From: an uncultured Candidatus Saccharibacteria bacterium
Lineage (GTDB): Bacteria; Patescibacteriota; Minisyncoccia; Minisyncoccales; CAZJYW01
Length of the DNA: 45,659 bases
Reading direction: 5' to 3'
NCBI GenBank assembly: GCA_964550395.1
Contig: CAZJYW010000001.1
Coordinates: 1-45,659, forward strand
Position numbers and translations under genes: made by a program. Position 1 is the first letter of the stretch, and every line of letters begins with the position of its first letter. The notes under the pieces are model-generated. The model did not search any database. It was not told the DNA's origin and worked only from the letters and a program-made list of their open reading frames with translations. This document shows positions 1 to 40,747 of this stretch, piece after piece.

Positions 1-33
1 AAAAAATGGAATTAAATTATAAATGTTGTCAAA

Positions 34-3000: not shown

Positions 3001-6000
3001 GTAGCAGATATTGAATACCGGGTAGATGGAGGTTCCTGGCTAGATGTTGATTCCTTTACTCCAGCTCCCTCTGTTTCTTTTGCCTTTACCCCTTCTCCTT
3101 TAGTTGATGGAACTCATACCTTTGAAGTTAGGGCTCAAGATGAAGCAGGCAATTGGGAACAATCTCCTTATCCCAGTGACACCTTAACTATTGATACTAC
3201 TCCGCCTCTCACCACTATCTCTCCCGATGGAGAAGATTGGGGGAATTCTGATGTTGACTTCACTCTAAGCTGTGACGATGGAACAGGTTCTGGTTGCCAA
3301 ACTACTGAGTACAAGATAATAGACCAGAGTCAAACCTGTGATACTTCTGATTTAATCACTGGGAATTCAGGAACAGTCACCTGCCCAGAGGACCAAACCT
3401 GCCAAAAGAAGGCCTGTTTTAGAAGTATTGATAATCTAAACCAGGAAGAGACAATTAATACCTCAAATCTTTTTAAGGTTGATAAGATAAACCCTTCAGG
3501 AACCCTTGAAGTTAGTCCAGATTCACCAATAGTGGAAGAAGATATTACCATTACCATTAGTGCTAATGATGGAGAAAGTGGAGTTGATTATCTTTTAGCT
3601 GAAGATGACGGAACCTATTTACCGTCTCAAGATTGTGGTGGAGCTGCCATCTGTGATAAGAGCTGGATAGTCCAAGAAACAGTAGCTGGAGACCATACCT
3701 ATTGTGGTTTAATCTATGATTTAGCTGCCAACGTTAACAACACTACTCCTTATTGTATTACTATTACTGTTACTATTTCTGACGATACTCCGCCTTACGT
3801 AGAGGTAATTGCTGATCCTCCTGAAGTAAAAACTACCTGGCAGAATACTGATGCCACCGCTAATGTTTCTTGTTCTGATCCTGATACTTGGACTTGTGGC
3901 GATTCAGTCACCTTCACTTACAAAGGTAGCTCTGTTACTTATGGAACAGTAGAGAGTCAGGGTAAGTGTTGGATGGATAGAAATCTTGGCGCCTCGCGAA
4001 TGGCTTGGTCCTACAATGACTCTTTGGCTTACGGAGATTTGTTCCAGTGGGGCAGATTGGATGATGGTCATCAAACTCGCACCAGTGGTAAAACTACGAC
4101 CCTTTCCAGCACAGATATCCCCGGCCACAGTAATTTCATCTACGTTACGAGCCCCATTTATGACGACTGGAGATCTCCCCGAAATGATAACCTTTGGCAA
4201 GGAGTTTCAGGTACCAACAATCCTTGCCCTTCTGGTTGGCGGATACCTGCTGAGGCAGAGTGGGACACTGAACGAGCCAGCTGGAGCCAGCAGAACTATA
4301 TTGGCGCTTTTGACAGCCCCCTTAAACTTACCGTTGGTGGTTACCGGTATTACAGAGACGCTTCCCTCCACGGTATGGGTAGCTACGGCCAATATTGGGC
4401 TTCCACTGTGGATGGTTCGTACGCTAGCAGCCTGCACTTTCAAAACAACGCTGCCGATACGGATCCCGACCACCGGGCCGTCGGTTTTTCGGTTCGCTGT
4501 ATCAAAGATTCAGATTCAGATTTAGGCTGTGATTCAGCATCTTACAGGTTAAAAACCTATACTGTAAACCCTGGGACTTGTTCAACTAACTATGCCGATT
4601 ATACTTTAGCTTCTCCCCAGACTGTTTCTTCTTATCAATGGCTTTGCGGAACAGCCAAGGATTTAGTTGGCAATGCTGGCTTCTCCAGCCCAGTAGAATT
4701 TAAGGTTGACAAGATTAATCCTTCAGGAGCTTTAACTGTTAGCCCGGAGAATCCAATCATTGGCCAAGATATTACCATTACCATTGTTGGCCAGGATGGA
4801 GAAAGTGGAGTAGGTGATGTTTTAGCTAAAGATGATGATGATTGGTTAATAACAAAAAATTGTGGAGGAACTTCTCCTTGTAATAAAAATTGGGTAGTCC
4901 AGGAGACAGCAGCTGGAGACCATACCTATTGTGGTTTAGTTTATGATGTGGCTGATAGCTACTTTTATACCAATTGTAAGACAATAACGGTAACTACTAC
5001 TGGACTTGTTTGCGATGTAAATGTTCAGAATAATACGGCGGTTGTAAATCAATGGATTTCAATTAATGTTTCTGGCTCTCAGGGAGCGATAGCCGAAGTC
5101 CGTTTTACTAGTAATTTGATTGGTGAGCCTGCTGGCAGCTGGACTGATTGGTATGGCTGGGATGTTTCTTCTGGTGATTGGGATGCCAGTTTCAAGATAA
5201 TGAAATGGAGTTTTGCTGAAACAGGAAATTACGAAGTCTGGGTAGAATTAAAAGATGGAAGTGGCAACACCCAGGCTTGCTATGACACAATTTTAATTAT
5301 GGAGTGTTATCCCGGCCAGACAAAAACCTGTACTTCCTTCCAAGATTGTAGTCATACAATAACTTGCCAACCAAACGGGACCTGGCCTTCTTGTCCAGAA
5401 GACCAATGCGTATCTGGAACCACTCAATCTTGTGGAGTAAATGGACTTCAAACCTGCATTGATACCTGTACCTGGGGACCTTGTGTTACCCCGCCACCTG
5501 ACGGTGATGGCTGTCCTTGGCCACCAGATATTAGTTGTGATATTTGCTGGAAACCGGTATGTAATACCGAAACTGATGAGTGGGAATGTCAGCCTGATCT
5601 TGATGCGGCCGGGACCGACTGCGGTGATTGTTTAATGTGTGATAACAGCGGAAATTGCAGTATCCCTCTTTGTTCAGGGATTGCCGAAAGTTGTGAATGT
5701 ATTCCGGGTTCTCCAGATTCCTGCAAAGATTGTTCTGATTATGGAATTGAATGCGGTTATAAAGAAGGACCTTGTTATTGCGGTCAATACGAATATCCAA
5801 TTTGGAGTTGCGATGAGGGAGAATGCCAATGTTACTGTCAGGAGGATGAAACCGGTGAAATCTGTCCAAGCGAGCCGCCTGAAGAATGTGAGTATAGTCC
5901 ACCTATTGTCAGCATAGTTCCGGACTATCGAGAGGGAGCAGCGGGCGACCGTTTAACTTATACCGTTTCGGTTATCAATCAGGATGAGGGAGTGGAATGT

Positions 6001-6900
6001 GAATCCTCTAATTTCATTTTAAGCACAGGTGGAATTTGCGATAGTTGGAATTGTGATTTAGATTCGCTAACTTTAACCATCGCTCCACAATGTTCTCAAA
6101 CCACCCAATTACATGTCAGCTCACCCGCTGAGCCCCTTGCTCCCAAAGAATACTATGTTATTTCGGTTGCTGCTGTTAATCAGACAAGCGGACTTTTCGG
6201 AGCCGATGAAGCTATTTATAAAGTCCTTAATAATCCTCCCTCAGCGATAAGCCTTTCTGCAACACCCATTGGCGATTGCTTTCTTAACCACCCATATGTT
6301 AGATTGGAATGGTCTTTTTCCGACCCTGATTTAGCTTCGGGTGATAAGCAATCTGCTCGTGAAGTAGAAATATTTAGCGACCCGGGTTACATCAATCTGG
6401 TAAATAGGATTCCTGAGCCGGATTATTCCCCTGGTTCTACTGAATATGCTCCCAATACCGGCTTATCTTTCAATGCCACTTATTACTGGAGGGCAAGAGT
6501 TTGGGATAATGAAGGCGCTCTTTCAGACTGTGGCCAGCCCGAGGGCTGGTGTTATCCAGAACAACCCTCTTTCCATACTGAAAAAGAATGGCCCTGGCCT
6601 TATTTTTCAGTTGCCCCTCTTACTCAAAGAGTTCATTTGAAGGAGAGGGTTGAGTTTACTGACGAATCTACATGTTATGATGGTCCTTGTAATTTTAGTC
6701 CCACAACTTATTACTTATGGGAATTCGGCGATGGAGGAACCAGCCCGGAGAAGGTTAAAACTTCCCATATTTACTCGGCAACAGGAAACTACGACGTTAC
6801 TTTAACCATAACTGATGATATCGGGGAATGTACTTATGGCCCGATACAAATAGTCGTCACCCTTCCTCTGCCAGAATGGTGGGAGATAGCACCATTTTAA
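34..6900 (+). CDS. Giant secreted cysteine-rich multidomain surface protein (2288 aa): signal peptide, repeated Ig-like beta-sandwich modules, fibronectin type III, FISUMP-type domain, Cys-rich module, C-terminal PKD domain
   Basis: Uninterrupted 6.9-kb ORF. The N-terminus MANIQKIILLTLFLAFLLLGFQVFA/AE looks like a Sec signal peptide. An fn3-like stretch reads PEPPTNLIATAVSLDEIDLTWTP. FISUMP motifs are CWMDRNLGA, CPSGWRIP, GGYRYY, YWAST and GFSVRCIKD. The PKD-like motif is WEFGDGGTS...HIYSATGNYDVTLTITD. The module DKI(D/N)PSGTLxVSP...GESGV...YCGLIYD recurs four times. Confidence 0.85.
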   Translation: MANIQKIILLTLFLAFLLLGFQVFAAECNSSGWNNSDCTVDIYYGDPGGGSDLAECKFGTLNGTPPLPSCSTVENWDTACVCGGASTTCNGINITIGSGGKCSSQGEGACKVCSKAVDTAGNEGYCDDIVDNCLSLNIDYTLPETAIECDSTTCSASWYNADISITLLCSDSHSGCDKTYYCVGQIDSCDPDPTVDGIEYTGAFTLTTEGTNYVKYYSIDIAGNIEQPTKSQTIKLDKNDLSGTLTISPMTVQVDETFTVSVDSQDSLSGVNYIHLYREGSQIDSCNCGGLNSCSHSWNLTESTEGVYTYQALIYDIAGNSVFSNAEEVTVIPPDTTPPATTLDEYLPDPTNDNTPTCSGASIDTQSQVVDIEYRVDGGSWQDVDLFTPALSVIFTFTPSSLTDGTHTFEVRAQDEAGNWEQSPYSSDTLTIDTTPPTTTISPDGEDWGNSDVDFTLSCDDGTGSGCQATEYKIIDQSQTCDTSDLITGNSGTVTCPEGQTCQKKVCFRSIDNLNQEEPINTSNLFKIDKIDPSGTLEVSPDSPIVGEDITITISANDGESGVDYLLVEDDGTYLPSQDCGGAATCDKSWIVQETVSGDYTYCGLIYDLAANINNTTPYCITITVKEAITPPTVETDPATNIEETSATLNGRVIATGGEDPTRYFKWDTTNNSIIWVSPTGHNDPDNGWNNEGNAYDGDTGTRATTPSLTVGTWSTFLELTHTAINCSKIRFFLSFLTYLLSEVDIDVYYGGAWHDVYQGGYTKDEWIEKDIPAGEQLVTKARFRVKRAYSDGIGELNEFDFGEVSYVNTENCGIGGPGTYSAPISGLSPGEVYYFRAAAENIAGMSYAANEEKFLTKPEPPTNLIATAVSLDEIDLTWTPGQGADYTEVWRKESSCPTARGDGDLLAGTTLDYYNDTGLDSGTTYCYGLWSVVSKEGLTQYSDEEQCECATTIADTTPPATTLDEYLPDPTNDNTPTYSGASTDTQSQVADIEYRVDGGSWLDVDSFTPAPSVSFAFTPSPLVDGTHTFEVRAQDEAGNWEQSPYPSDTLTIDTTPPLTTISPDGEDWGNSDVDFTLSCDDGTGSGCQTTEYKIIDQSQTCDTSDLITGNSGTVTCPEDQTCQKKACFRSIDNLNQEETINTSNLFKVDKINPSGTLEVSPDSPIVEEDITITISANDGESGVDYLLAEDDGTYLPSQDCGGAAICDKSWIVQETVAGDHTYCGLIYDLAANVNNTTPYCITITVTISDDTPPYVEVIADPPEVKTTWQNTDATANVSCSDPDTWTCGDSVTFTYKGSSVTYGTVESQGKCWMDRNLGASRMAWSYNDSLAYGDLFQWGRLDDGHQTRTSGKTTTLSSTDIPGHSNFIYVTSPIYDDWRSPRNDNLWQGVSGTNNPCPSGWRIPAEAEWDTERASWSQQNYIGAFDSPLKLTVGGYRYYRDASLHGMGSYGQYWASTVDGSYASSLHFQNNAADTDPDHRAVGFSVRCIKDSDSDLGCDSASYRLKTYTVNPGTCSTNYADYTLASPQTVSSYQWLCGTAKDLVGNAGFSSPVEFKVDKINPSGALTVSPENPIIGQDITITIVGQDGESGVGDVLAKDDDDWLITKNCGGTSPCNKNWVVQETAAGDHTYCGLVYDVADSYFYTNCKTITVTTTGLVCDVNVQNNTAVVNQWISINVSGSQGAIAEVRFTSNLIGEPAGSWTDWYGWDVSSGDWDASFKIMKWSFAETGNYEVWVELKDGSGNTQACYDTILIMECYPGQTKTCTSFQDCSHTITCQPNGTWPSCPEDQCVSGTTQSCGVNGLQTCIDTCTWGPCVTPPPDGDGCPWPPDISCDICWKPVCNTETDEWECQPDLDAAGTDCGDCLMCDNSGNCSIPLCSGIAESCECIPGSPDSCKDCSDYGIECGYKEGPCYCGQYEYPIWSCDEGECQCYCQEDETGEICPSEPPEECEYSPPIVSIVPDYREGAAGDRLTYTVSVINQDEGVECESSNFILSTGGICDSWNCDLDSLTLTIAPQCSQTTQLHVSSPAEPLAPKEYYVISVAAVNQTSGLFGADEAIYKVLNNPPSAISLSATPIGDCFLNHPYVRLEWSFSDPDLASGDKQSAREVEIFSDPGYINLVNRIPEPDYSPGSTEYAPNTGLSFNATYYWRARVWDNEGALSDCGQPEGWCYPEQPSFHTEKEWPWPYFSVAPLTQRVHLKERVEFTDESTCYDGPCNFSPTTYYLWEFGDGGTSPEKVKTSHIYSATGNYDVTLTITDDIGECTYGPIQIVVTLPLPEWWEIAPF
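1036..1907 (+). repeat. Intragenic direct repeat, copy 1 (872 bp)
   Basis: Colinear with 2899-3770 at a constant offset of 1863 nt, with no indels seen. Confidence 0.9.
2899..3770 (+). repeat. Intragenic direct repeat, copy 2 (872 bp)
   Basis: The protein copies (DTTPPATTLDEYLPDPTNDNTPT...YCITITV) differ at about two dozen of roughly 290 residues by manual comparison. Confidence 0.9.
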
Positions 6901-10112: not shown

Positions 10113-11864
10113 ATGAAAGTAGACCCGGGACAACTAAGAGCCTTTCTTTTAGACGCTGGTTTAGTAACCGAGAAACAATTTGACGAGGCTCAAAAAAAAG
10201 CAGAGGAAACCAAACAAAAAGTTGGTGATGTTTTGATTTCTGAAGGCCTAATTTCCCAAGAAGAACTAATTAAACTCGAAGCCTATATTTTGGGAATTCC
10301 TTTTGTAGATTTAGAAAAAGAAATTGTTCCGCCGGAAGCTCTGAAAATTATTCCTGAACCCATTGCTCGTTCTCATAATATCGTTGCTTTCAGAAAAAAG
10401 GGAAACGATTTAGAGGTAGCCATGTTAGATCCTGAAGACTTAAGAACAATTGAGTTTATTAAAAAGAAGGAACCTGGATTAAAAATTTTACCAAGGCTAA
10501 CTACTCCGGAATCAATCAAAAATGTCTTAAGACAATATCAAAAAACTCTTGAGGCTGAGTTTGGAGAAATTATCAAAAAAGAAGCTAAGGGGATTAAAAT
10601 TATCAGTGAAAAGGGAGTAGTAGAAGAAAAAGAGGAACTTAAAAAAATAGCTGGGGAGATTCCAATAATCAGGATTGTTGATACTTTAATGAAGCACGCC
10701 ATTTTAGAGAGAGCTTCCGACATCCATATTGAACCCCTGGAAAAAGAAGTAATAGTTAGATATCGAATTGATGGAATTTTGCATGATACGATGACTTTGC
10801 CCAAAACAGCGGCTTCTGGAATTGTAGCCAGGATAAAGGTTTTATCAAATTTAAAATTAGACGAACATCGACTTCCCCAAGATGGAAGATTTAAAATTGA
10901 AACTGAGGAATATCGATATTCGATTCGAGTTTCAATTTTACCAGTTTTTGATGGAGAAAAAATTGTGATGCGGCTTTTATCTGAGACCTCTAAAGCCCAT
11001 ACCTTAGAAGGCTTAGGTTTTATGGGAGATGCTTTGGAAAGAGTTCAGGACAATTTAAGAAAGCCAGTAGGGATGATTTTAATAACTGGACCTACTGGCT
11101 GCGGGAAAACTACCACTCTTTATGCCATGATGGAAATTTTGAATATTCCTGGAGTAAATATTTCTACAGTAGAAGACCCAGTTGAATACCGAATGCCCAG
11201 AATTAATCAAACTCAGGTTAGACCAAAAATTGGATTAACTTTTGCCTCAGGGCTTAGAGCTTTGGTTAGACAAGACCCAGATATTATTATGGTGGGGGAA
11301 ATTAGAGATAATGAAACAGCTGGTTTAGCTATTAATGCTGCCTTAACCGGTCACTTAGTTTTGTCTACTTTACACACTACTGATGCGGCTGGGGCCATTC
11401 CTAGATTGATTGACATGAAAGCCGAGCCATTTTTAATTTCCTCCACTTTAAATTTAATTTTAGCCCAGCGATTAGTGAGACGGTTTTGCAACGAAAAAGA
11501 AAAATATACTTTAACTGATTCTGAAATAAAAAATTTAAAAAAATATTGCGACCCAGACAGAATTCTGAAGATTCTAAAGGAGGAAAAAATAATAAAACCA
11601 AAAGAAAGTTTCCGAGACATCGGATTCTATCGGCCCAAACCATCTAAAGAATGTCCTGAGGGATATAAGGGCAGAATTGGAATTTACGAATCCTTACCAG
11701 TTACTGAAACCATCAAGGAATTAATTGTTAAAAGAGCAACTTCTTACCAAATCACCGCTCAAGCCCAAAAAGAGGGAATGAGAGCTATGATTGAAGATGG
11801 TTTCGTTAAGGCAGCCCAAGGGATAACCAGTATTGAGGAGGTATTAAGAGTAATCATTGAATAG
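10113..11864 (+). CDS. pilB: Type IV pilus assembly ATPase PilB (GspE family)
   Basis: N-terminal T2SSE_N-like domain, Walker A GPTGCGKTTT, GspE-type Asp and His boxes (MVGEIRD, TGHLVLSTLHT). Confidence 0.92.
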   Translation: MKVDPGQLRAFLLDAGLVTEKQFDEAQKKAEETKQKVGDVLISEGLISQEELIKLEAYILGIPFVDLEKEIVPPEALKIIPEPIARSHNIVAFRKKGNDLEVAMLDPEDLRTIEFIKKKEPGLKILPRLTTPESIKNVLRQYQKTLEAEFGEIIKKEAKGIKIISEKGVVEEKEELKKIAGEIPIIRIVDTLMKHAILERASDIHIEPLEKEVIVRYRIDGILHDTMTLPKTAASGIVARIKVLSNLKLDEHRLPQDGRFKIETEEYRYSIRVSILPVFDGEKIVMRLLSETSKAHTLEGLGFMGDALERVQDNLRKPVGMILITGPTGCGKTTTLYAMMEILNIPGVNISTVEDPVEYRMPRINQTQVRPKIGLTFASGLRALVRQDPDIIMVGEIRDNETAGLAINAALTGHLVLSTLHTTDAAGAIPRLIDMKAEPFLISSTLNLILAQRLVRRFCNEKEKYTLTDSEIKNLKKYCDPDRILKILKEEKIIKPKESFRDIGFYRPKPSKECPEGYKGRIGIYESLPVTETIKELIVKRATSYQITAQAQKEGMRAMIEDGFVKAAQGITSIEEVLRVIIE

Positions 11865-11929
11865 CCGAGCCACCGAAGGTGGCGAAGGCTGGAGATGAAG
11901 GCAAACCCGAAGGGGCAAACTTCATCGAC
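11864..11929 (+). repeat. GC-rich two-hairpin repeat element, copy A (pilB-pilC intergenic)
   Basis: GCCGAGCCACCGAAGGTGGCGAAGGCTGGAGATGAAGG...CTTCATCGAC. Hairpin 1 is GCCACC-GAA-GGTGGC and hairpin 2 has the stem GATGAAG/CTTCATC. It matches 38578-38630 and the reverse complement of 24243-24301. Confidence 0.85.
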
Positions 11930-11933
11930 TAAA

Positions 11934-13151
11934 ATGCCACGCTATTTTTATACTGCCAAATCTCTTAAGGGGGAAAGTAAAACCGGTAGTTTAGTGGCCA
12001 AAAATGAGCCCCAATTAGCAAAAAAACTGCGAGAACAGGGTTTTCTTTTAATTAAAGCTAAAACTGAAAAAGAAACTAAGAAAAGAAAATTAGAAATCTC
12101 CCTTCCCTTTTTTGGAGGGGTTTCTTTAACTGAGAAAATATTTTTCATTAGAAATTTACGGGTAATGCTATCCTCAGGTCTTTCCTTGCCCCGAGCCCTC
12201 CATATTTTAGCTGACCAATCGAAAAGTAAGAAGTTTAAAAGCGCTTTATTAGATATCAGAGAAGAAATTACTAAAGGAAAAAGTTTTTCTGAATCATTAA
12301 GTAAATATCCTAATATTTTCTCTGAACTTTTTTTTAACATGGTAAAAGTAGGGGAGGAAGCCGGAACCTTAGAGGAAGTTTTAAAAATCCTCTCTGAACA
12401 GATGGAGAGAGAGCACGAACTATTATCAGAAATAAAAGGGGCATTGATTTACCCAGCAGTAATTATAGTGGCAATGATTGGGATTGGAATTTTAATGCTG
12501 GTGATGGTTGTTCCCCAATTAGCCGCAACTTTTGAAGAGCTAAATGTTGAACTTCCCGCTACTACCAAATTAGTAATTGGTTTAGGTGCTTTTTTAGTTG
12601 AGAAATTGTACTTAGTTATTTTAATCTTTATTTTTCTTATCTTTATTTTCTTGAGAGTGCAAAAGACAAAAAATGGGAAAGCAGCCATAGATGCTCTTTT
12701 ATTAAAAATCCCCATTATTTCTCCAATTATCAGAAAAACTAATTCGGCCTCTACGGTTAGAACTTTAAGTTCTCTCATTTCTTCGGGGGTGCCCATTGTT
12801 AGGTCTTTGGAAATTATTTCTGGAACTTTAAGTAATATTTATTTTAAGGAAGCGATGAAGGAAGCAGCTAAAAAGGTTAGAAAGGGAGAAAAATTGTCTG
12901 AGGCTCTTAAACCTTATCAAAATATTTATCCTTTGATTGTTATTCAAATGATTGCGGTAGGAGAGGAAACTGGTGAAACTTCCAACATTTTAGCCAAATT
13001 AGCTGCTTTTTTTGAAGAAGAAGTAAGGAGAATTACTAAAAATTTAACGGCAGTCATTGAACCAGTAATAATGTTAATCATTGGAGCAGCAGTTGGTTTT
13101 TTTGCCATCTCCATGGTTCAGCCAATGTATAGTATGCTGGGAGGACTATAA
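11934..13151 (+). CDS. pilC: Type IV pilus platform protein PilC (GspF family)
   Basis: Two GspF repeats and three TM segments. The ORF-track start at 11895 lies inside the repeat element, so the ATG at 11934 (MPRYFYTAKS) is more plausible. Confidence 0.88.
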   Translation: MPRYFYTAKSLKGESKTGSLVAKNEPQLAKKLREQGFLLIKAKTEKETKKRKLEISLPFFGGVSLTEKIFFIRNLRVMLSSGLSLPRALHILADQSKSKKFKSALLDIREEITKGKSFSESLSKYPNIFSELFFNMVKVGEEAGTLEEVLKILSEQMEREHELLSEIKGALIYPAVIIVAMIGIGILMLVMVVPQLAATFEELNVELPATTKLVIGLGAFLVEKLYLVILIFIFLIFIFLRVQKTKNGKAAIDALLLKIPIISPIIRKTNSASTVRTLSSLISSGVPIVRSLEIISGTLSNIYFKEAMKEAAKKVRKGEKLSEALKPYQNIYPLIVIQMIAVGEETGETSNILAKLAAFFEEEVRRITKNLTAVIEPVIMLIIGAAVGFFAISMVQPMYSMLGGL

Positions 13152-23251: not shown

Positions 23252-24749
23252 CCATGGGAAAACGGCTCTCCTGGACCAGATTAGAAAAACCCACGTTGCA
23301 GAAAAAGAAACTGGCGGCATTACCCAGCATATCGGAGCTTATCAAATTGTTGAAGGTGATAAAAAAATAACTTTTATTGATACTCCTGGTCACGAAGCCT
23401 TTTCGGCAATGCGCTCCCGAGGTAGCAAAATAGCTGACTTGGCTATTTTAGTAGTGGATTCCTCGGAAGGAGTAAAAGCTCAAACTAAAGAGGCGATTTC
23501 TCATATTAAAAAATCAGGAATTCCAATAATTGTTGCCTTAAACAAAATTGATAAACCCGAAGCTAATCCAGAAAAAGCTAAAAGGGAACTGGCTCAGGAA
23601 GATGTTGTGGTTGAATCGCTGGACGGGAAAACTCCTTCAATTGAAATTTCGGCTCTCACTGGCCAGGGAATTCCTGAGCTCTTAGAATTGATATTATTAG
23701 TGGCCGAAATGGAAAATTTGAAAGTAGAGCTTATTAAGAAAGCGGAAGGAGTAGTAATCGAATCTTATTTAGACCGTTTAAGAGGGCCAACGGCTACTTT
23801 GCTCATTACCGAGGGAGTTTTAAAACAAGGTGATATTTTGGGTACTTTTTCTACCTTTGGGAAAATAAAAAAATTAGAAAACTTTCAAGGTTGCTCTATT
23901 GAAAAAGCCTTGCCTTCAGATCCGGCTGTTGTCATCGGGTTTGAAGATGTTCCTAAAGTTGGGGAAAATTTTAAAGTTTTTCCGGATTTGGAAACGGCTA
24001 AAAACTATCTTAAAATCCCAGCAAAAAAAGCTCCTGAAGTTTTATCCCCCACCGAGGTTCCTCTGGCAGAGGGCATAGACCAAAAGGTTTTAAATCTAAT
24101 TTTAAAAACCGACGTTTTTGGCTCAATTGAAGCCATTGAGGAAGTTTTAAATAATCTTCCCCAAGAGAGAGTGGTTTTAAGAATTTTAAAATCGGAAGCA
24201 GGGGAGATAAATGAGGGGGACATTAAGTTAATTAAAGGGGGTCGGGAGTCGATGAGGGCGAGGTCTTCATCTCCACCTTCGCTACCTTCGGTGGCTCGGT
24301 CATTAATTTTTGGCTTCCGGGTAAAAATCAATCCAACAGCCAAAATACTAGCCGAAAGAGAGAAAATTAAAATAATGACCTTTGACGTAATTTATGATTT
24401 AGTGGAGGGAGTTCGCAAATTTATGGAAAAAGAGCTTCGACCAGAGAAGGTTCGAACCGATTTGGGGAAAGTTAAAACTTCAGCAATTTTTCTTATAGAA
24501 AAAAATCGCCAGATTGTTGGAGGAAAAGTGATTGAAGGAGAAGTTAAAAAAGGAGCTTCGATTGAAATTTTTCGGGAAGAAAACCTTATTGGTAAAGGGA
24601 AGTTGGTCAATCTCCAGAAAAACAAAAAAGATGTCGATAGAGTTCCGAAAGGGGAGGAGTGCGGACTCCTTTACGAAGGTGATACCAGAATTGAAGAGGG
24701 GGATACATTAGCGATTTATCAAGAAGAAAGAAGGAAGAGTGAGCTGTAA
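23163..24749 (+). CDS. infB: Translation initiation factor IF-2 (short N-terminus) carrying an in-frame repeat insertion
   Basis: G-domain motifs GHIDHGKT, DTPGH and NKID. The C-terminal beta-barrel domains are present. An extra 20 aa (RESMRARSSSPPSLPSVARS) is encoded at 24243-24301. Confidence 0.92.
   Translation: MPKTTKKNLTRLTARQVTRPPVVVVLGHIDHGKTALLDQIRKTHVAEKETGGITQHIGAYQIVEGDKKITFIDTPGHEAFSAMRSRGSKIADLAILVVDSSEGVKAQTKEAISHIKKSGIPIIVALNKIDKPEANPEKAKRELAQEDVVVESLDGKTPSIEISALTGQGIPELLELILLVAEMENLKVELIKKAEGVVIESYLDRLRGPTATLLITEGVLKQGDILGTFSTFGKIKKLENFQGCSIEKALPSDPAVVIGFEDVPKVGENFKVFPDLETAKNYLKIPAKKAPEVLSPTEVPLAEGIDQKVLNLILKTDVFGSIEAIEEVLNNLPQERVVLRILKSEAGEINEGDIKLIKGGRESMRARSSSPPSLPSVARSLIFGFRVKINPTAKILAEREKIKIMTFDVIYDLVEGVRKFMEKELRPEKVRTDLGKVKTSAIFLIEKNRQIVGGKVIEGEVKKGASIEIFREENLIGKGKLVNLQKNKKDVDRVPKGEECGLLYEGDTRIEEGDTLAIYQEERRKSEL
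24243..24301 (-). repeat. GC-rich two-hairpin repeat element, copy C, in frame inside infB (inverted orientation)
   Basis: GTCGATGAGGGCGAGGTCTTCATCTCCACCTTCGCTACCTTCGGTGGCTCGGTC is the reverse complement of the element at 38578-38630, with a few substitutions. Confidence 0.85.
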
Positions 24750-24751: not shown

Positions 24752-25093
24752 ATGTCTAAGCGTATTCAACGGGTCAATCAATTAATAAAAAAGGAGATAT
24801 CCCAAATTCTTTTGCGAGAAGTAGAATTTAATTCGGGGGTTTTAATAACCGTGACTAGAGTAGAGAGTGCGGTTGACCTAAGTCAGGCTAAAATTTATAT
24901 AAGCTGTCTGCCCGAAGAGAAAACTTCAAAAGTTTTTCAAATCTTGAATCGACAGATTTATGAATTACAAAAAAAATTGAATCATCGTTTGCGAATGAGG
25001 CCAATCCCCCGAATTAAATTTATCGAAGAGAAAGAAACTAAAGAGGCGGGCCGGGTCGAAGAAATTTTAGAAAAGCTGAAATTAAAGAAATAA
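24752..25093 (+). CDS. rbfA: Ribosome-binding factor A
   Basis: 113 aa. N-terminal RIQRVNQLIKKEISQIL is typical of RbfA. The gene directly follows infB, which is the conserved order. Confidence 0.88.
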   Translation: MSKRIQRVNQLIKKEISQILLREVEFNSGVLITVTRVESAVDLSQAKIYISCLPEEKTSKVFQILNRQIYELQKKLNHRLRMRPIPRIKFIEEKETKEAGRVEEILEKLKLKK

Positions 25094-25095
25094 AT

Positions 25096-25136
25096 TTCTT
25101 CTCCACCTTCGCCCCACTGTGGCGGGGATCGGTAAT
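25096..25136 (-). repeat. Partial or variant copy (D) of the two-hairpin element, just after the rbfA stop
   Basis: TCTCCACCTTCGCC is shared with copy C, followed by a different GC-rich segment (CCACTGTGGCGGGGATCGG). Confidence 0.55.
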
Positions 25137-25206
25137 TGAAGAGATTTTAGAGAAAATTAAAAAAGATGGTTGGAAAACTGGTGAAAAATTGCTAAGATAA
25201 TTTGAC

Positions 25207-25955: not shown

Positions 25956-25961
25956 TTTAAA

Positions 25962-25993
25962 ATCGAGCACATAACGCTTTATGTGCTCCGATT
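25962..25993. repeat. CGAGCACAT palindromic hairpin, copy 1
   Basis: TCGAGCACAT-AACGCTTT-ATGTGCTCCGA, related to 37004-37050 and 37162-37193. Confidence 0.7.
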
Positions 25994-32851: not shown

Positions 32852-32855
32852 AAAT

Positions 32856-35372
32856 ATGGCTAAAGACCCCAATCCAAAAAACAGGGAAATTGGTTACGTC
32901 AAACCGCGGGAAATCACCGAAGAGATGAGGGATTCTTACATTGATTATGCCATGTCGGTGATTATCTCCCGGGCTTTACCCGATGTCAGAGATGGATTGA
33001 AACCGGTTCACCGTCGGATTTTGTATGCGATGCATGAAATGGGATTAAAACACGATGCCAAGTTTAGAAAATCAGCAACGGTAGTAGGAGAGACATTGGG
33101 AAAATATCATCCTCACGGCGATCAATCTGTTTATGATGCCGCGATAAGAATGGCACAAGATTTTTCATTGAGATACCTTTTGATACAGGGTCAAGGAAAC
33201 GTAGGGTCAGTCGATGATCCAAGCGAGTTTGCGGCTATGCGATATACAGAAATGAGAATGTCGAAAATTGGTGAAGAAATGTTAAAAGACATTGAAAAAA
33301 ATACAGTTGATTTTGTTGACAATTATGATGGAACCAGGAAAGAACCCACTGTTTTGCCCTCTCCCTTTCCCCAACTTTTATTAAATGGCTCTCTGGGAAT
33401 TGCTGTTGGCATGGCCACCAATATTCCTCCTCATAATCTTTCGGAAACTTGCGATGCCGCCATTTATTTAATTGACCACCCCAGAGCCGCCACAGAAGAT
33501 TTACTAAAATTTATTAAAGGCCCTGACTTCCCAACTGGCGGAGAAATTTTTAATCAAAAAGAAATAATTCAAGCCTATTCTCAAGGAAAGGGGCCAATTA
33601 TCACCCGGGGTAAGGCCGAAATCACCGAGGACAAAAAAGGCAGACTCCAAATTATGATTACGGAAATTCCCTATCAAGTTCAAAAGTCTTCTTTAGTTGA
33701 GCAATTGGCTAACTTAGTTCAAGAAAAAAAGATTGAAGGAATAAAAGACATTAGAGATGAATCAGATAAAGAGGGGATGAGAATTGTTATTGATTTACAG
33801 CGGGAGGCCATAGCCCAGAAAATTTTAAACCGGCTTTACAAATTTACTGACCTCCAAAAAACTTTCCATTTGAACATGTTGGCCATAGTGGAAGGAATCC
33901 AGCCTCGGGTTTTAAACTTAACCGAACTCTTAAATTATTATCTTTTACATCGAAAAGAAGTAATATATCTGAGAACAAAGTATGACTTGGAGAAAGCCAA
34001 AGAAAGAGCTCATATTTTAGAAGGATTAGATAAATGCCTGGCGAATATCGATGCCGTAATTAGAACAATTAAACAATCGGATAACCGGGAGGAAGCTCAA
34101 AAAAACTTAATAAAAAGGTTTAAATTAACTCAAATTCAGGCTAATGCCGTTTTAGAAACAAAACTTTCAGCCTTAGCCAAATTAGAGAGGAAAAAGATTG
34201 AAGATGAATTAAAAGCGCTCCGTATTAAAATTAAAGAATTAACCGCGATTTTAAAGAGCCCTCAAAAAATAAAAGAAGTGGTTAAGAAAGAGTTGAAAGA
34301 AATAAAAGAAAATTTTGGCGATGAAAGAAGAACCAAAGTCCGTCTCCAAAAAGTGGGCGAAATTGCTGAAGAAGATTTGATTCCCCAAGAGGAAACTATT
34401 ATTACTTTAACTCAAGGAGGTTATATCAAAAGATTAAACCCGGCTACTTATAAAATTCAAAAAAGAGGAGGAAAAGGAATTTTAGGAATGAAAACGGTCG
34501 GAGAAGATATTGTCGAGCACTTTCTAACCGCTAACACTCACGACTCTCTGCTTCTTTTTAGTGATTCGGGAAAAGTTTTTAGAACTCCAGTTTACGAAAT
34601 TCCCGAAGGAACTAGAGTAGCCAAGGGAAGAGGTCTTTTAAATTTTCTAGAAATTTCTTCTCAAGAGAAAATCTTATCTCTGATGTCCTTAGGGAAAGCC
34701 GACCAGGGTTTTATCAAATATTTAGTAATTGCCACCAAAGATGGTATAATCAAAAAAACAGCCCTTGAAGAATTTGAAAATGTGAGAAGGTCAGGTTTAA
34801 TTGCCATCACTCTTAAAAAGGGGGATGCCTTAAGGAAAGTTTCAAGAACCACCGGTGAGGATGAAATTATTTTAGTGACTAAAAAAGGTCAGTCTGTCCG
34901 CTTCAAGGAAAAAGAAATAAGGCCGATGGGAAGAGCGGCAGCCGGAATTAGAGGAATCAAGCTTAAAAAAGCTGATGAAGTGGTCGGGATGGACGTTGTT
35001 GACGTTAAACGTCAACAGGGGAAAAAACAATATCTATTAGTTGTAACGGAAAATGGGTTTGGGAAGAGGACGGATTTAAAAGAATATAGACTTCAGGGTA
35101 GGGGAGGTTCGGGGATTAAAACTGTTCAAGTTGCCCCCAAAACCGGAGATTTAGTAGCTTCAAAAGTTTTAACTACCCGAGCATTAGCGAAGGGTGAAAA
35201 TGAAGCCAAGGCTTCATTGCCTACCGAAGAAGATTTAATTGTTATTTCTCAAAAAGGTCAGGTGATAAGGGCGGCAATTTCTAGTATCTCCAAACTTTCC
35301 CGGGTTACCCAAGGAGTAAGAATAATGAAATTAGGAGAGGGAGACCAGGTAGCTTCAGCCACCTGTATCTAA
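32856..35372 (+). CDS. gyrA: DNA gyrase subunit A
   Basis: [12 protein letters not shown]...[31 protein letters not shown], active-site context AAMRYTE, and a C-terminal beta-pinwheel with repeated G.GKR/RGG.G motifs. The start is set at the ATG at 32856, not the upstream in-frame extension. Confidence 0.93.
34998..35016. repeat. 19-bp palindrome inside the gyrA C-terminal domain
   Basis: GTTGACGTT-A-AACGTCAAC, encoding VDVKRQQ. Confidence 0.65.
35176..35222 (+). repeat. Degenerate partial copy (E) of the two-hairpin element, in frame in gyrA
   Basis: CCGAGCATTAGCGAAGGGTGAAAATGAAGCCAAGGCTTCATTGCC aligns with CCGAGC...GCGAAGGCTGGAGATGAAG...CTTCATCGAC of copy A. It lacks hairpin 1 and keeps the hairpin ATGAAGCC-AA-GGCTTCAT. 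Confidence 0.5.
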
Positions 35373-37829: not shown

Positions 37830-38561
37830 TTAATTAATTTTACAAATACTTTTCATTTTTTTCAACCTTTTGAATCCCAAGGAAACAAAGAGGGCCAAAC
37901 TAATCAAGATAATAATAGGAATTAAGAATCTCAGGCTTCCCTCAATTTCCATAATAGAAAAATTATAAAGTCCATGCAAGAGGCAGGCTATTCCCAAGCC
38001 GACAGCTAAGAGCGATATCCGGTTTTTTGTTTCGGAAAAAGATAGAGCCAGAAAGAGACCTACGGTTCCTGAACATAAGGCATGTAAAAAGGTTGCTCCT
38101 AAAAACCTGGCAACCGTAATCGAAAAAGCTTCTCCGAGTAAAAAGGTTGGACCGAGAGTGATTAAAATCAAAATGTTTTCTAAAGCGGCAAAACCCAGAG
38201 CGGCAATTATCATATAAAGCAAGGCATCGGTTGGTTCATCAAATTCGGCACTCTTCAGTACTTTTTCTTTCACCACTAGATATTTTAGAACCTCTTCAAC
38301 CAGAGCTACTCCGATCAAAGCATTAAAAATAATAATTAAAAAGGGAGAGAGGAGATTAGATAATGGTGGGTGCAAGGTGCTCTCAAAAATTCCCTTTTCT
38401 AAGAAAACCGCTGGGATGGCAGCCAACATTCCATAAAAGAAAATTTTTATTACCTGGGAATTAGGTTCAGGATGAACATCTTTTCTCAAATAAAACAAAA
38501 GCCAGATTAGGCTGGGCAGAACTCCAAAAAAAATATAAAGAGGATAACTCATTTGGGCCAT
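37830..38561 (-). CDS. prsW: PrsW-family intramembrane metalloprotease
   Basis: Multi-TM protein with the PrsW motifs VEEVLKY, GFAALEN and HALCSG. Its stop is 1 nt from the hsp20 start. Confidence 0.8.
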   Translation of the reverse strand: MAQMSYPLYIFFGVLPSLIWLLFYLRKDVHPEPNSQVIKIFFYGMLAAIPAVFLEKGIFESTLHPPLSNLLSPFLIIIFNALIGVALVEEVLKYLVVKEKVLKSAEFDEPTDALLYMIIAALGFAALENILILITLGPTFLLGEAFSITVARFLGATFLHALCSGTVGLFLALSFSETKNRISLLAVGLGIACLLHGLYNFSIMEIEGSLRFLIPIIILISLALFVSLGFKRLKKMKSICKIN

Positions 38562-38577
38562 TTTTCAATCATTAAAC

Positions 38578-38630
38578 GCCGAGCCACCGAAGGTGGCGAA
38601 GGTGGAGATGAGGGACTCGCCCTCATCGAC
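38578..38630 (+). repeat. GC-rich two-hairpin repeat element, copy B (valS-prsW intergenic)
   Basis: GCCGAGCCACCGAAGGTGGCGAAGGTGGAGATGAGGGACTCGCCCTCATCGAC. Its last base is part of the valS stop codon. Confidence 0.85.
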
Positions 38631-40747
38631 TATTTGGGCCATTCCTCGATCATCAGGCATTTCTTTTTATTCTCTATTGGTAATTTTTGATAGATTTCTT
38701 CAGTGATGAAAGGCATGAATGGATGCAAAAGTTTTTGAGAAGTTAGTAATACATATAATAGAACTTTCTCTGTATTTTCTTTTTCAGTTTTGGATTTTGG
38801 ATTTTGGATTTTGGATTTCGATGATTCAATATAAACATCGCAGAAGTCATGCCAGAAAAAATTATAGAGGATATGGGCGGCCTGGCCGAACTGAAAACCT
38901 CCCAAATTTTTATTAACTGATTTTATTGTTTTATCTAAGGCTCGAAGAATTCTTTTATCAGCCAATGTTAACTTTGAGCCAGAGCACAAAATCTTTGTGC
39001 TCGGCCGAGCACTCAACCCTATTTGAGTACTCTGGTTTTGCATCATTACAAATCGGCTAGCATTCCAAATCTTGTTACAGAACTTCTTTCCCATAACTAT
39101 ATTGTCTTCAGTAAATCTAATATCCTGTCCTCCCATAATTTGCCAGGCTATCCCAAATCGGGTAGCATCGGCTCCATATTTTTCAATGAGATTTATCGGG
39201 TCTACTCCGGTACCAAGAGATTTTGACATTCTTTCCCCCTCTTTGGTTAAAACAGTAGCATGGACATAGACCTCTCGAAATGGCTCTTTTTTCATAAATT
39301 CCATCCCGGAAAATATCATCCTGGCTACCCAGAGATTTATAATTCCTCGGTCAGTACTCAGAACATTGGTTGGATAAAACCTTTTTAAGTCTTTGGTTTT
39401 TTGGGGCCAACCAAGGGTGGCAAATGGCCAGAGAGCAGAGGAAAACCAGGTATCCAGAACATCGTTCACGCCTTTTAAGGGTATTTTATGACCCCACCAG
39501 ATTTGTCTGGAAATGCACCAATCTCTGATGTTCTTTAACCAGTCAAAGTAGATTTTTTCCCACCTTTTGGGAATAAATTTTATCCGGCCTAATTTAACAG
39601 CCTTGATAGATTTTTTAGCCAGTTTATCCATTTTTAAAAACCACTGCTTAGAGGGAATCAATTCAACCGTTGTGTTGCAGCGGTAACATTTAGGAACTTG
39701 ATGATTGTACTCCTCAACTTTTTCTAAAAGTCCTAATTTTTCCAAATCTTCAACCACTTTTTGTCTAACCTCCAAAACCTTTAAGCCCCGGTATGGCAGA
39801 GGAGAATTTTTAGTCATTCTGCCGTTTTCATCAATTACTTTAACTGAACCTAATTTATGCCGGAGACCAATTTCGTAGTCGGTCAAATCGTGGGCTGGAG
39901 TAATTTTAACAGCGCCAGTGCCAAATTTTGGGTCAACTAATCCATCAGCCACGATAGGAATTTTTTTATTGACTAAAGGCAAAGTAACTTTTTTACCGAT
40001 TAATTTTTTATATCTTTTGTCGCCGGGATTAACGGCAACCGCCGTGTCTCCCAGCATGGTTTCGGGTCTGGTGGTGGCAACAGTTATAAAAGGAGGATAT
40101 TTTATATACCAAAGATGACCCTTTTCTTCTTTATATTCTAATTCTAGGTCTGATAAAGAGGTGGCGCACCTTGAACACCAATTGATTACTCTTTCTCCTT
40201 GATAAATCCAGCCTTTTTTGTAGTAATGTAAAAAGGCAGCTTCCACTGCTCGGATATAATCTTTGTCCATGGTAAAACGGGCTCTCGACCAATCAAACGA
40301 AGCGCCTAATTTTTTAAATTGATTTAAAATTATATTTTCGTATTGATCCATCCAGTCCCACATTGTTTTAATAAACTTTTCTTTACCTAAATCAAACCTT
40401 GTTTTACCTTCTTTTTTTAATTTTTTCTCTACTTTGTTTTGGGCAGAGATGCCGGCATGGTCGGTGCCGGGCAGCCATAAAGTTTTAAATCCCTGAAGTT
40501 TTTTCCAGCGGATTAAAATATCCTGAACAGTGACATTTAAAGCATGGCCCATATGAAGCTCACCAGTAATATTTGGGGGAGGGATAACAATACAATAAGG
40601 CTTTTTATGACGTTTAGGAAGCTTATCAGGATTAAAAAAACCAGACTTTCGCCAGAGATTGTAAGTTTTATTTTCCACCTTTTTCGGATTATAAGCCTTC
40701 GGAAGTTTCATATATCTTATTCTATCAACTGACTTGCCTTTTTTCAA
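38630..40747 (-). CDS. valS: Valine--tRNA ligase (short form lacking the long C-terminal coiled coil)
   Basis: HIGH-type motif PPNITGELHMGHAL, KMSKS-type RMSKSLG, CP1 editing domain and anticodon-binding helices. The likely start is the internal ATG at 40711 (MKLPKAYNP). Confidence 0.92.
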   Translation of the reverse strand: MKKGKSVDRIRYMKLPKAYNPKKVENKTYNLWRKSGFFNPDKLPKRHKKPYCIVIPPPNITGELHMGHALNVTVQDILIRWKKLQGFKTLWLPGTDHAGISAQNKVEKKLKKEGKTRFDLGKEKFIKTMWDWMDQYENIILNQFKKLGASFDWSRARFTMDKDYIRAVEAAFLHYYKKGWIYQGERVINWCSRCATSLSDLELEYKEEKGHLWYIKYPPFITVATTRPETMLGDTAVAVNPGDKRYKKLIGKKVTLPLVNKKIPIVADGLVDPKFGTGAVKITPAHDLTDYEIGLRHKLGSVKVIDENGRMTKNSPLPYRGLKVLEVRQKVVEDLEKLGLLEKVEEYNHQVPKCYRCNTTVELIPSKQWFLKMDKLAKKSIKAVKLGRIKFIPKRWEKIYFDWLKNIRDWCISRQIWWGHKIPLKGVNDVLDTWFSSALWPFATLGWPQKTKDLKRFYPTNVLSTDRGIINLWVARMIFSGMEFMKKEPFREVYVHATVLTKEGERMSKSLGTGVDPINLIEKYGADATRFGIAWQIMGGQDIRFTEDNIVMGKKFCNKIWNASRFVMMQNQSTQIGLSARPSTKILCSGSKLTLADKRILRALDKTIKSVNKNLGGFQFGQAAHILYNFFWHDFCDVYIESSKSKIQNPKSKTEKENTEKVLLYVLLTSQKLLHPFMPFITEEIYQKLPIENKKKCLMIEEWPK
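38787..38817. repeat. Heptanucleotide tandem repeat (GGATTTT, about 4 units) inside valS
   Basis: GTTTTGGATTTTGGATTTTGGATTTTGGATTT, encoding SKSKIQNPKSK on the minus strand. Confidence 0.8.
38978..39035. repeat. Double GAGCAC-type hairpin block, in frame inside valS
   Basis: GAGCACAAA-ATC-TTTGTGCTC (38982-39002), then CGAGCACTCAA-CCCTAT-TTGAGTACTCTG. The block encodes the QSTQIGLSARPSTKILCSGSK loop. Confidence 0.65.

What the first reader, a model, noticed from the sequence alone, without database searches (positions are those of the whole stretch)
11864..11929. Two-hairpin GC-rich element between pilB and pilC, with a compensatory change relative to its paralog
The 66 nt directly after the pilB stop are GCCGAGCCACCGAAGGTGGCGAAGGCTGGAGATGAAGGCAAACCCGAAGGGGCAAACTTCATCGAC. 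Hairpin 1 (GCCACC-GAA-GGTGGC) is identical to that of copy B. Hairpin 2 keeps its stem but changes sequence: GATGAAG/CTTCATC here against GATGAGG/CCTCATC in copy B, an A-T to G-C compensatory swap. Its loop also differs in size. That points to selection on structure, whether RNA or cruciform DNA. The element contains GGAGATG, which produces the misleading pilC start at 11895. Both intergenic copies share an AATCATT.AA-like left flank.
Basis: seen in the sequence. Interest (0 to 1): 0.7.

Follow-up and report, generated by a model that had tools for sequence, protein, structure and literature searches.

The report
Miniature two-hairpin mobile DNA element
The GC-rich 67-base spacer between pilB and pilC is one copy of an apparently undescribed family of tiny hairpin-forming insertion elements in Nealsonbacteria (candidate phyla radiation) that insert without target duplication at gene junctions and, in frame, into essential genes such as IF-2, gyrase A and valyl-tRNA synthetase.

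Summary
In 26 distinct copies, 96.5% of stem cells pair and 13 of 17 pairs change on both sides.

It is not a pilB-pilC-specific leader. The window holds five copies: pilB|pilC, inside infB, inside gyrA, at the rbfA 3' end and at valS|prsW. About 22 loci were found in roughly 200 kb of related Nealsonbacteria DNA.

Architecture: ACCGAGC-[hairpin 1]-GCGAAGGTGGAGA-[hairpin 2]-TCATCGACT, 45-69 nt, with conserved unpaired joints and freely covarying stems.

It is, or was, mobile:
- Close relatives have empty sites at infB, gyrA, valS|prsW and pilB|pilC.
- Removing exactly 54 nt from infB restores the relatives' protein sequence, so there is no target duplication.
- One copy sits inside the hairpin-1 loop of another.
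- The left flank has a TTCAATT consensus.

Copies occur in both orientations relative to transcription. Those inside genes are stop-free and in frame.

The closest analogues are Rickettsia palindromic elements and the REP and IS200/IS605-type hairpin elements. No transposase was found.

Two things remain unexplained. The pilB|pilC copy is 67/67 identical between lineages with very different flanks, yet its distribution among relatives is patchy. Two copies are flanked by 27-nt duplications.

The parts
11864..11930 (+). Copy A, long subfamily (67 nt), between the pilB stop and the pilC start. Outer stem 11864-11866/11887-11889. Hairpin 1 11869-11874/11878-11883. Hairpin 2 11894-11900/11920-11926. 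Nested hairpin 11906-11908/11912-11914. The first base completes the pilB stop codon TAG.
   Evidence: empty sites in relatives
10113..11864 (+). pilB (T2SSE/MshEN ATPase, 583 aa). Its stop codon TA|G is completed by the element.
11934..13151 (+). pilC (T2SSF). The true start is ATG 11934; the ATG at 11895 inside the element is spurious.
24247..24300 (-). Copy B (54 nt), antisense and in frame inside infB (23163-24749). It adds 18 aa (ESMRARSSSPPSLPSVAR) and its stems are decaying.
25054..25133 (-). Copy at the rbfA 3' end, antisense. The R1 hit is 25080-25133 and the R2 hit is 25054-25133. The rbfA stop (25091-25093) lies inside it. It is flanked by 27-nt direct repeats at 25055-25081 and 25135-25161.
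35176..35222 (+). Short-subfamily copy, sense and in frame inside the gyrA C-terminal domain (ORF 32817-35372). Net +15 aa compared with the L081 GyrA.
38578..38631 (+).
38551..38577 (.). Left 27-nt direct repeat flanking copy C. It is the native prsW start region and the former valS C-terminal codons; 22/22 nt match the empty site in L080.
38632..38658 (.). Right 27-nt direct repeat flanking copy C. It now encodes the ValRS C-terminus (C)LMIEEWPK.

Best explanation
The pilB-pilC spacer is one copy of a dispersed family of miniature, non-autonomous insertion elements (45-69 nt) of Candidatus Nealsonbacteria.

Each copy has conserved unpaired joints (ACCGAG, GCGAAGGTGGAGA, CGACT) around two hairpins. 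The stem sequences are free to vary but always pair.

Shown:
- The element enters DNA as a discrete unit with exact ends and no target duplication, preferentially just 3' of a TTCAAT(T)-like sequence.
- The copies that persist are those the compact genome tolerates: gene junctions, or protein loops where the insert is a stop-free multiple of three and is translated.
- At pilB|pilC it landed in the stop codon of an originally abutting gene pair (GAATA^AAAATG). Its first G re-creates the stop (TAG), and the pilC ATG is left 3 nt downstream.

Inferred, and held with lower confidence (about 0.3):
- The moving form is a folded single DNA strand recognised by an enzyme supplied in trans, in the style of an IS200/IS605 or REP-RAYT HUH enzyme. 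Such an enzyme cuts and joins at the hairpin feet, which would also allow precise excision.
- The junction copies (pilB|pilC, valS|prsW) are now under constraint, or are repeatedly re-acquired at the same site.
For: Family and structure:
- Covariance models R1 and R2 find 5 copies in the window and 33 hits in 233 kb of related loci: 26 distinct sequences at about 22 loci.
- 96.5% of stem cells pair, and 13 of 17 pairs change on both sides. The covariation score is 0.547 against 0.177 for shuffles and at most 0.091 for slid partners (earlier set).

Insertion:
- IF-2 orthologues at 87-89% identity lack the 18 aa that the window, P0001 and P0002 carry.
- Deleting exactly ACCGAG...CGACT from L071 gives GGA GGT CGG GCA TTG ATT, which reads GGRALI. 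That is the protein of the empty sites in L072 and L073, so the insert is 54 nt with no duplication.
- Empty sites also exist for gyrA (L081), valS|prsW (L080, L081) and pilB|pilC (L075, L076, L077, L079).
- A nested copy in L059 splits the hairpin-1 loop of another copy. That outer copy is intact in L035.

Target: the left-flank consensus is TTCAATT. TCAAT occurs in 7 of 22 left flanks against 0.26 expected.

Both orientations and in-frame survival: at least 10 copies lie inside long ORFs, 6 sense and 4-5 antisense.

Decay inside genes: the infB copy is 48/54 identical between the window and L071, while the flanking codons are 94.5% identical.

Other: both strands fold, as DNA and as RNA. No Rfam family matches.
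Against: - No transposase or other mobilising gene was found in the window. tblastn with IS608, IS200 and RAYT sequences found nothing in about 300 kb of related DNA.
- The pilB|pilC copy is 67/67 identical between the window and L042, although pilB third codon positions are about 60% identical and PilC is 72.6% identical. The valS|prsW copy is 85-91% identical against 70-78% for its flanks. That is not how inert junk evolves.
- Two copies carry 27-nt flanking duplications, which a seamless single-strand mechanism does not predict.
- The pilB|pilC and valS|prsW target sites do not match TTCAATT at the junction.
- The alignments used for pair counts were fitted to the model structure.
Confidence: 0.72

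Rival explanations
1. The element is a cis-acting RNA structure that serves the pil operon. It would act as an attenuator, a processing or stabilising site, or a device that uncouples or re-tunes pilC translation. The other copies would do similar jobs in other transcripts. As a secondary exaptation of an inserted copy this is plausible; as the primary explanation it is weak.
For: - The copy is strongly conserved: 67/67 identical against 81% for the pilB 3' end and 73% for the pilC 5' end.
- Stems are kept by compensatory change in orthologous copies, for example L050 hairpin 1 (C-G to T-A) and valS|prsW hairpin 2 (G-C to A-T).
- The pilB|pilC junction carries three different structured inserts in different lineages.
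- Mismatches are G-U rather than A-C on the mRNA strand 7 times against 2 (not significant).
- The RNA fold is stable.
Against: - The element occurs in both orientations relative to transcription and inside coding sequences.
- There is no T-run or terminator-like site and no Rfam match.
- Close relatives manage with abutting genes and no element.
- Genes here largely lack Shine-Dalgarno sequences, so the GGAG in the element is unlikely to act as a ribosome-binding site.
Confidence: 0.12
2. The copies are binding sites for a host DNA-binding or DNA-processing factor. That would be REP/BIME-like (gyrase, nucleoid protein), or an uptake or recombination signal. Conservation of the unpaired joints would then reflect host function, and spread would occur by molecular drive.
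For: - The joints (ACCGAG, GCGAAGGTGGAGA, CGACT) are nearly invariant while the stems vary.
- Copies occur in both orientations.
- Density is roughly one copy per 10 kb.
- Junction copies are conserved across lineages.
Against: - Copies arise as discrete 45-69-nt insertions with exact ends, not by point mutation.
- The infB copy decays at least as fast as synonymous sites.
- The distribution among close relatives is patchy.
- A nested insertion exists.
Confidence: 0.08
3. The element is a SINE-like structured RNA that is reverse-transcribed into nicked targets. This would give variable target duplications: none at some sites and 27 nt at others.
For: - 27-nt direct repeats flank two independent copies, while other copies have none.
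- The element has a compact, conserved RNA-like architecture with covarying stems.
- Candidate phyla radiation genomes carry reverse-transcriptase systems; a bAvd gene lies next to pilB in L079.
Against: - There is no poly-A or other 3' tail and no 5' truncations. Ends are exact on both sides.
- No reverse transcriptase was seen in the held loci.
- A defined 5'-flank motif fits DNA-level site recognition.
Confidence: 0.05

Closest known systems
Rickettsia palindromic elements (RPE)
   Same: Short palindromic repeats with no coding capacity for their own mobility. They are dispersed in a small AT-rich genome and are repeatedly found in frame inside unrelated housekeeping genes, where they add a peptide. 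They also occur between genes. Insertions are shared or polymorphic among relatives. The mobilising enzyme is unknown (review PMC10969869).
   Different: RPEs are about 100-150 bp and occur in Alphaproteobacteria, with no sequence similarity to this family. This family is 45-69 nt, with two independent hairpins plus a 3-bp outer stem, conserved joints and a TTCAAT-type left flank. No RPE-like conserved peptide frame is evident: several frames are used in both orientations.
REP / REPIN elements with RAYT, and IS200/IS605-type ends (including miniature derivatives such as PATEs)
   Same: Hairpins with a short conserved tag at the foot. The stem sequence is free but pairing is kept. Insertion is just 3' of a short specific sequence, without target duplication, and precise loss is possible. 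These are general properties of the families, stated from my own knowledge.
   Different: REPs are extragenic, carry GTAG or CGTC tags and often occur in clusters (PMC3733652, listed). No Y1 HUH gene was found here. The 27-nt duplications at two loci are not expected for this chemistry. Left and right ends lie only about 50 nt apart.
Mitochondrial GC clusters of yeasts and the 'byp' elements of Magnusiomyces
   Same: Small GC-rich hairpin-forming mobile inserts in a very AT-rich genome, including inside protein-coding genes (stated from my own knowledge).
   Different: The systems are unrelated. Byps are skipped by the ribosome, whereas here every intragenic copy is stop-free and a multiple of three, which indicates ordinary translation.
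Classical bacterial MITEs (Correia/NEMIS, ERIC, RUP, BOX)
   Same: Non-autonomous, repeated, structured elements, often at gene junctions, sometimes intragenic with in-frame fusions (PMC10969869).
   Different: Those elements have terminal inverted repeats and short target-site duplications and are 100-250 bp. This family has no TIRs (ends ACCGAG and CGACT) and no TSD at the best-resolved sites.

Membership tests
Rickettsia palindromic elements (as a kind: in-frame palindromic repeats) | Repeated palindromic unit found inside unrelated protein-coding genes, in frame and without stops | tested here: met
   infB, gyrA, valS and at least 7 other ORFs remain open across the element
Rickettsia palindromic elements (as a family) | Sequence homology to RPE-1..8, about 100-150 bp, Rickettsia host | tested here: not met
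   45-69 nt; the host is Candidatus Nealsonbacteria. No direct RPE comparison was run; the length and host alone exclude membership
REP / RAYT system | Conserved GTAG (or CGTC) tetranucleotide at the hairpin foot; extragenic location | tested here: not met
   The foot motifs are CCGAG and CGAAG, and many copies are intragenic
REP / RAYT system and IS200/IS605 | A Y1 HUH transposase (RAYT or TnpA) encoded in the genome | tested here: inconclusive
   No hit in about 300 kb of held Nealsonbacteria DNA or in window ORFs scanned against Pfam.
IS200/IS605-type ends | Insertion 3' of a specific short sequence, without target duplication | tested here: met
   Seamless 54-nt insert in infB and a seamless nested insert. 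TTCAATT left-flank consensus, with TCAAT in 7 of 22 flanks against 0.26 expected. Exceptions: 27-nt repeats at two loci
IS200/IS605-type ends | Strand-specific insertion into the lagging-strand template | not testable with these tools
   Needs a complete chromosome with a mapped origin and terminus
Classical MITE | Terminal inverted repeats and a short target-site duplication | tested here: not met
   The ends ACCGAG and CGACT are not inverted repeats, and there is no TSD
Intrinsic terminator | GC-rich hairpin followed by a T-run | tested here: not met
   No terminator-like site at the element. After it come CGACTAAAATG (copy A) or, on the transcribed strand of copy C, GTTTAATGATT
Any Rfam RNA family | Covariance-model match at or near the gathering score | tested here: not met
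   Only tRNAs reach gathering score. The best weak hits score 13.7 and 11.7 bits against thresholds of 36-70

The most novel reading that the evidence does not exclude
A 45-69-nt structured element moves by site-specific, scar-free insertion and excision in transposase-poor candidate phyla radiation genomes, using an enzyme or route not yet known. The same long variant has entered, or been precisely lost from, the identical nucleotide position at pilB|pilC in non-sister lineages. Some junction copies have been taken over by the host and are held under strong purifying selection. A second integration mode duplicates exactly 27 nt of target.
Probability: 0.25. Interest if true: 0.8.

Novelty: new member of a known kind. 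Interest (0 to 1): 0.6.

Why it matters
Candidate phyla radiation bacteria have tiny, tightly packed genomes and are thought to carry little selfish DNA. Here, a family of roughly 50-nt elements adds peptides to IF-2, GyrA and ValRS and splits once-coupled gene pairs. That makes such elements a real source of protein and operon variation in these organisms.

The family is also a practical annotation hazard. It creates false start codons (pilC 11895), odd 'insertions' in conserved proteins and duplicated gene ends.

The exact ends, the defined target motif and the natural filled and empty alleles make the mobilisation mechanism directly testable. The contrast between decaying intragenic copies and strongly conserved junction copies offers a clean case for studying the exaptation of mobile hairpins.

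Tried and rejected
- **Rfam.** A gathering-threshold scan of the whole window and permissive scans of two copies returned only tRNAs and noise.
- **Terminator or promoter role.** No terminator-like site lies at the element, and the single promoter-like match is at chance level.
- **Small ORF in copy A.** The frame is open in both the window and L050. However, 5 of 7 substitutions are non-synonymous and the candidate GTG start is lost in L050. This rests on inspection of the sequences.
- **Shine-Dalgarno presented by hairpin 2 (GGAG ... AUG).** Rejected as unlikely, because genes in this window generally lack SD motifs.
- **K-turn or hammerhead resemblance of the GA/GAA internal loop.** The registers do not fit. 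This was judged by inspection and from memory of the consensus motifs, not tested with a tool.
- **Pseudoknot between the 5' CGAG and CTCG in the hairpin-2 loop.** It is present only in window copies B and C and is not conserved in orthologues.
- **Correlation between the hairpin-2 arm and the target sequence (a guide-like mechanism).** None was seen.
- **Horizontal spread of copy A by homologous recombination with its flanks.** The immediate flanks differ by 5/40 and 9/40 nt between the window and L042, although the element is identical.
- **Transposase search.** tblastn with IS608, IS200 and RAYT sequences found nothing.
- **The first wide-pattern window search.** It failed because I miscounted the spacer.
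- **Literature searches.** Searches for such elements in Nealsonbacteria, Patescibacteria or the candidate phyla radiation found nothing relevant.
Full report
**1. The observation**

Position 11864 is the G of the pilB stop codon TAG. Comparison with the other copies extends the unit to T 11930, giving 67 nt.

A 3-bp outer stem (GCC/GGC) encloses hairpin 1 through a GA/GAA internal loop. A small CCC-GAA-GGG hairpin sits in the loop of hairpin 2.

The RNA fold is -31.7 kcal/mol (z = -4.8; 0 of 200 shuffles fold as well). Both strands also fold well as DNA.

It has an identical hairpin 1 and GATGAGGG/CCCTCATC in hairpin 2. The 24-nt core occurs three times in the window against 0.00 expected by chance.

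**2. Copies in the window**

A third strong copy lies on the minus strand at 24247-24300, inside the IF-2 gene (23163-24749). It is in frame and stop-free and adds 18 residues.

I built a covariance model from the 54-nt copies (R1) and a broader one (R2). With filters off, R2 finds two further window copies:
- 35176-35222 (+), inside the GyrA C-terminal domain.
- 25054/25080-25133 (-), at the 3' end of rbfA.

The window therefore holds five copies. Two are in frame inside essential genes and three are at gene ends or junctions. Their orientation relative to transcription is sense for pilB|pilC and gyrA, and antisense for infB, rbfA and valS|prsW.

**3. The organism and related copies**

Scans of public genome and metagenome contigs with short core patterns returned mostly chance hits in GC-rich genomes. 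All true hits were in Candidatus Nealsonbacteria, which belongs to Parcubacteria in the candidate phyla radiation.

These hits are orthologous copies at three sites:
- pilB|pilC: L032, L041, L042, L044, L046, L050, L063.
- valS|prsW: L005, L035, L047, L048, L055, L059, L062, L069.
- infB: L057.

Searching those loci, plus loci fetched through IF-2, PilB and ValRS homologues, gave 33 model hits in 233 kb. These are 26 distinct sequences at about 22 non-orthologous loci. That is roughly one copy per 10 kb.

**4. Architecture**

The consensus is ACCGAGC-[hairpin 1]-GCGAAGGTGGAGA-[hairpin 2, 5' arm GArGArr]-TCATCGACT.
- The unpaired joints are nearly invariant.
- Hairpin 1 ranges from GC-NTTA-GC in the short, roughly 45-nt subfamily to 8-bp stems of unrelated sequence, such as GCTTTCAT/ATGAAAGC and GGCTTAAT/ATTAAGCC.
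- The 3-bp outer stem covaries: ACC/GGT, AGC/GCT, ATC/GAT, CCC/GGG.
- A long subfamily (66-69 nt) carries the nested hairpin seen in the pilB|pilC copy. It is found at two other loci.

On the 26 distinct sequences, 96.5% of stem cells pair and 13 of 17 pairs change on both sides. The covariation score is 0.547, against 0.177 for shuffles and at most 0.091 for slid partners (earlier set).

Caveat: these alignments were fitted to the model. However, the stems can be read directly from the raw sequences.

No Rfam family matches.

**5. Evidence that it is an insertion with exact ends**

(a) IF-2. Orthologues at 87-89% identity lack the 18 residues that the window, P0001 and P0002 carry. At the DNA level, removing exactly ACCGAG...CGACT (54 nt) from L071 gives GGA GGT CGG GCA TTG ATT, which reads GGRALI. 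That is the protein of the empty sites in L072 and L073, so the insertion is seamless with no target duplication.

(b) A nested copy. In L059 one copy interrupts the hairpin-1 loop of another (..GCTTTCATT[57 nt]TATGAAAGC..). The outer copy is intact at the orthologous place in L035.

(c) GyrA. GyrA of L081 lacks the 15 extra residues.

(d) valS|prsW. This junction is empty in L080 and L081.

(e) pilB|pilC. The genes abut or overlap in four relatives: L075 (GAATAAATG), L076 (TAATG), and L077 and L079 with 6-9-nt spacers. Removing the 67 nt from the window gives GAATAAAAATGCC.

(f) Target preference. The 7 nt to the left of the element have the consensus TTCAATT. TCAAT occurs in 7 of 22 left flanks against 0.26 expected, and TCA in 14 of 22 against 2.5 expected. 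At infB the TCAA is present in the empty site, so it is target sequence and not part of the element.

**6. How the copies evolve**

The infB copy is decaying. It is 48/54 identical between the window and L071, while the flanking codons are 94.5% identical (92% at third positions). Several of its stem pairs are broken.

The junction copies behave differently:
- pilB|pilC is 67/67 identical between the window and L042. The last 100 pilB codons are 81% identical there (62% at third positions) and the first 600 nt of pilC are 73% identical.
- pilB|pilC is 60/67 identical to L050. Hairpin 1 shows a C-G to T-A compensatory change in that lineage.
- valS|prsW copies are 85-91% identical against 70-78% for their flanks. 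The differences are confined to the hairpin-2 loop, one covarying pair, and position 1, the 5' base of the outer stem (G in the window, A in the other four lineages).

**7. Patchy distribution of the pilB|pilC copy**

On both PilB and PilC, the nearest relatives of the window do not carry this copy:
- L076: PilC 81.6% identical, empty site.
- L078: 80.6%, a different 86-nt GC-rich element at the same junction.
- L075: 77.9%, empty site.

The lineages that do carry it are more distant: L042/L044 at 72.6% and L050 at 66%. L074 has an unrelated 150-nt palindrome at the same place.

Two scenarios fit. One is repeated gain of the same variant at the same nucleotide. The other is an old insertion with several precise losses plus strong constraint. 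Zero differences to L042 against seven to L050 fits more recent common ancestry of the element than of its flanks. The immediate flanks differ (5/40 and 9/40 nt), which argues against transfer by homologous recombination. I cannot decide between the two scenarios with the data available.

**8. What it does at pilB|pilC**

Shown:
- The insert separated a gene pair that abuts in relatives.
- It supplies the G of the pilB stop codon.
- It ends 3 nt before the pilC ATG.
- It creates the spurious in-frame ATG at 11895. All PilC homologues start MP(R/K)YFY at the ATG corresponding to 11934, and the upstream frame is closed in L050.

Not supported:
- An intrinsic terminator.
- A ribosome-binding role for GGAG. 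Genes here largely lack such motifs.

A secondary RNA-level effect on coupling or transcript stability remains possible. It would fit the conservation and the recurrence of structured inserts at this junction. It cannot explain the family as a whole, because copies occur in both orientations and inside genes. The excess of G-U over A-C mismatches on the mRNA strand (7 to 2) is not significant and is dominated by the infB copies.

**9. Mechanism**

Exact ends, no target duplication, a short specific sequence immediately 5' of the insert, and hairpins near each end with free stems but conserved feet are the hallmarks of single-strand 'peel and paste' elements: IS200/IS605 and the related REP-RAYT system. 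That comparison rests on my own knowledge of those families.

I therefore favour movement as a folded single DNA strand handled by an enzyme supplied in trans. This is inference only. No such enzyme was found in the window or in about 300 kb of related DNA.

**10. An observation the model does not explain**

The valS|prsW copy (in all five lineages) and the rbfA-end copy (window and L071) are each flanked by 27-nt direct repeats.

Empty junctions and 120 ValRS homologues show that ValRS normally ends ..CLMIE.WP.*. They also show that the prsW start codon can lie inside those last codons, as in L080.

The downstream repeat copy matches the native sequence of L080 at 22 of 22 nt and keeps the prsW start region. 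The upstream copy re-creates the ValRS C-terminus. The duplication therefore rescues both genes.

How an identical 27-nt length arose at two independent loci, and at none of the others, is unexplained.

**11. Comparison with known elements and verdict**

In behaviour, the closest known kind is the Rickettsia palindromic elements, which are in-frame palindromic inserts in housekeeping genes (PMC10969869). In anatomy, the closest are REP and IS200/IS605-type hairpin ends.

The family fails the defining features of classical MITEs (no TIRs, no TSD), of REPs (no GTAG tag, not extragenic) and of RPEs as a family (size, host).

Full-text searches found no description of such elements in Nealsonbacteria, Patescibacteria or the candidate phyla radiation.

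I rate it a new member of a known kind, namely small palindromic non-autonomous insertion elements. It has unusual features that deserve follow-up: very small size, a two-hairpin architecture with conserved joints, seamless site-preferring insertion, conserved but patchy junction copies, and the 27-nt duplications.

Noticed in passing
window 38551-38577 and 38632-38658; window 25055-25081 and 25135-25161; also L005, L035, L047, L059, L071: 27-nt direct repeats flank the valS|prsW copy and the rbfA-end copy but no other copy. At valS|prsW the duplication keeps both the ValRS C-terminus (CLMIEEWPK) and the prsW start region intact. The same length occurs at two independent loci.
   Followed up: partly
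L074 11750-11899; L078 1790-1879; L059 523-567: The pilB|pilC junction carries other structured inserts in other lineages. L074 has an unrelated ~150-nt long palindrome. L078 has an ~86-nt GC-rich element with a CCAGCC-GAA-GGCTGG hairpin that ends in CGACT. A similar piece lies in L059. This may be a second element family.
   Followed up: partly
window 25961-25994 and 37160-37193: A second repeated hairpin (CCGAGCACATAA..TTATGTGCTCGG) is present as an inverted pair. Each copy lies just downstream of a tRNA gene or cluster, so it looks like a shared terminator. It begins with the same CCGAGC as the element family.
   Followed up: no
window 34-6900: A 2288-aa ORF with Ig-like and PKD domains contains ~1.86-kb internal direct repeats (1036-1335/2899-3198 and 1609-1864/3472-3727/4699-4954).
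   Followed up: no
window, whole: There are 20 tRNA genes in 45.7 kb. Nearly all genes lack a Shine-Dalgarno motif and have A-rich leaders instead. Many genes abut or overlap.
   Followed up: no
L079 5133-5498: A gene with bAvd / 23S_rRNA_IVP domains, possibly an accessory gene of a diversity-generating retroelement, sits directly upstream of pilB in one relative.
   Followed up: no
proteins P0296, P0331, P0302 (ValRS homologues); P0021, P0023, P0071, P0087 (IF-2 homologues): Other lineages carry different in-frame inserts or C-terminal extensions at the same or nearby places in ValRS. A different short insert sits in the same IF-2 loop. These loops may be recurrent landing or tolerance sites.
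   Followed up: no
window 38630-40747: The class I aminoacyl-tRNA synthetase here, whose homologues are annotated as valyl-tRNA synthetase, is only 705 aa. It ends at position 106 of the 148-position Pfam anticodon-binding domain, with no C-terminal extension. This ending is conserved across the clade.
   Followed up: partly
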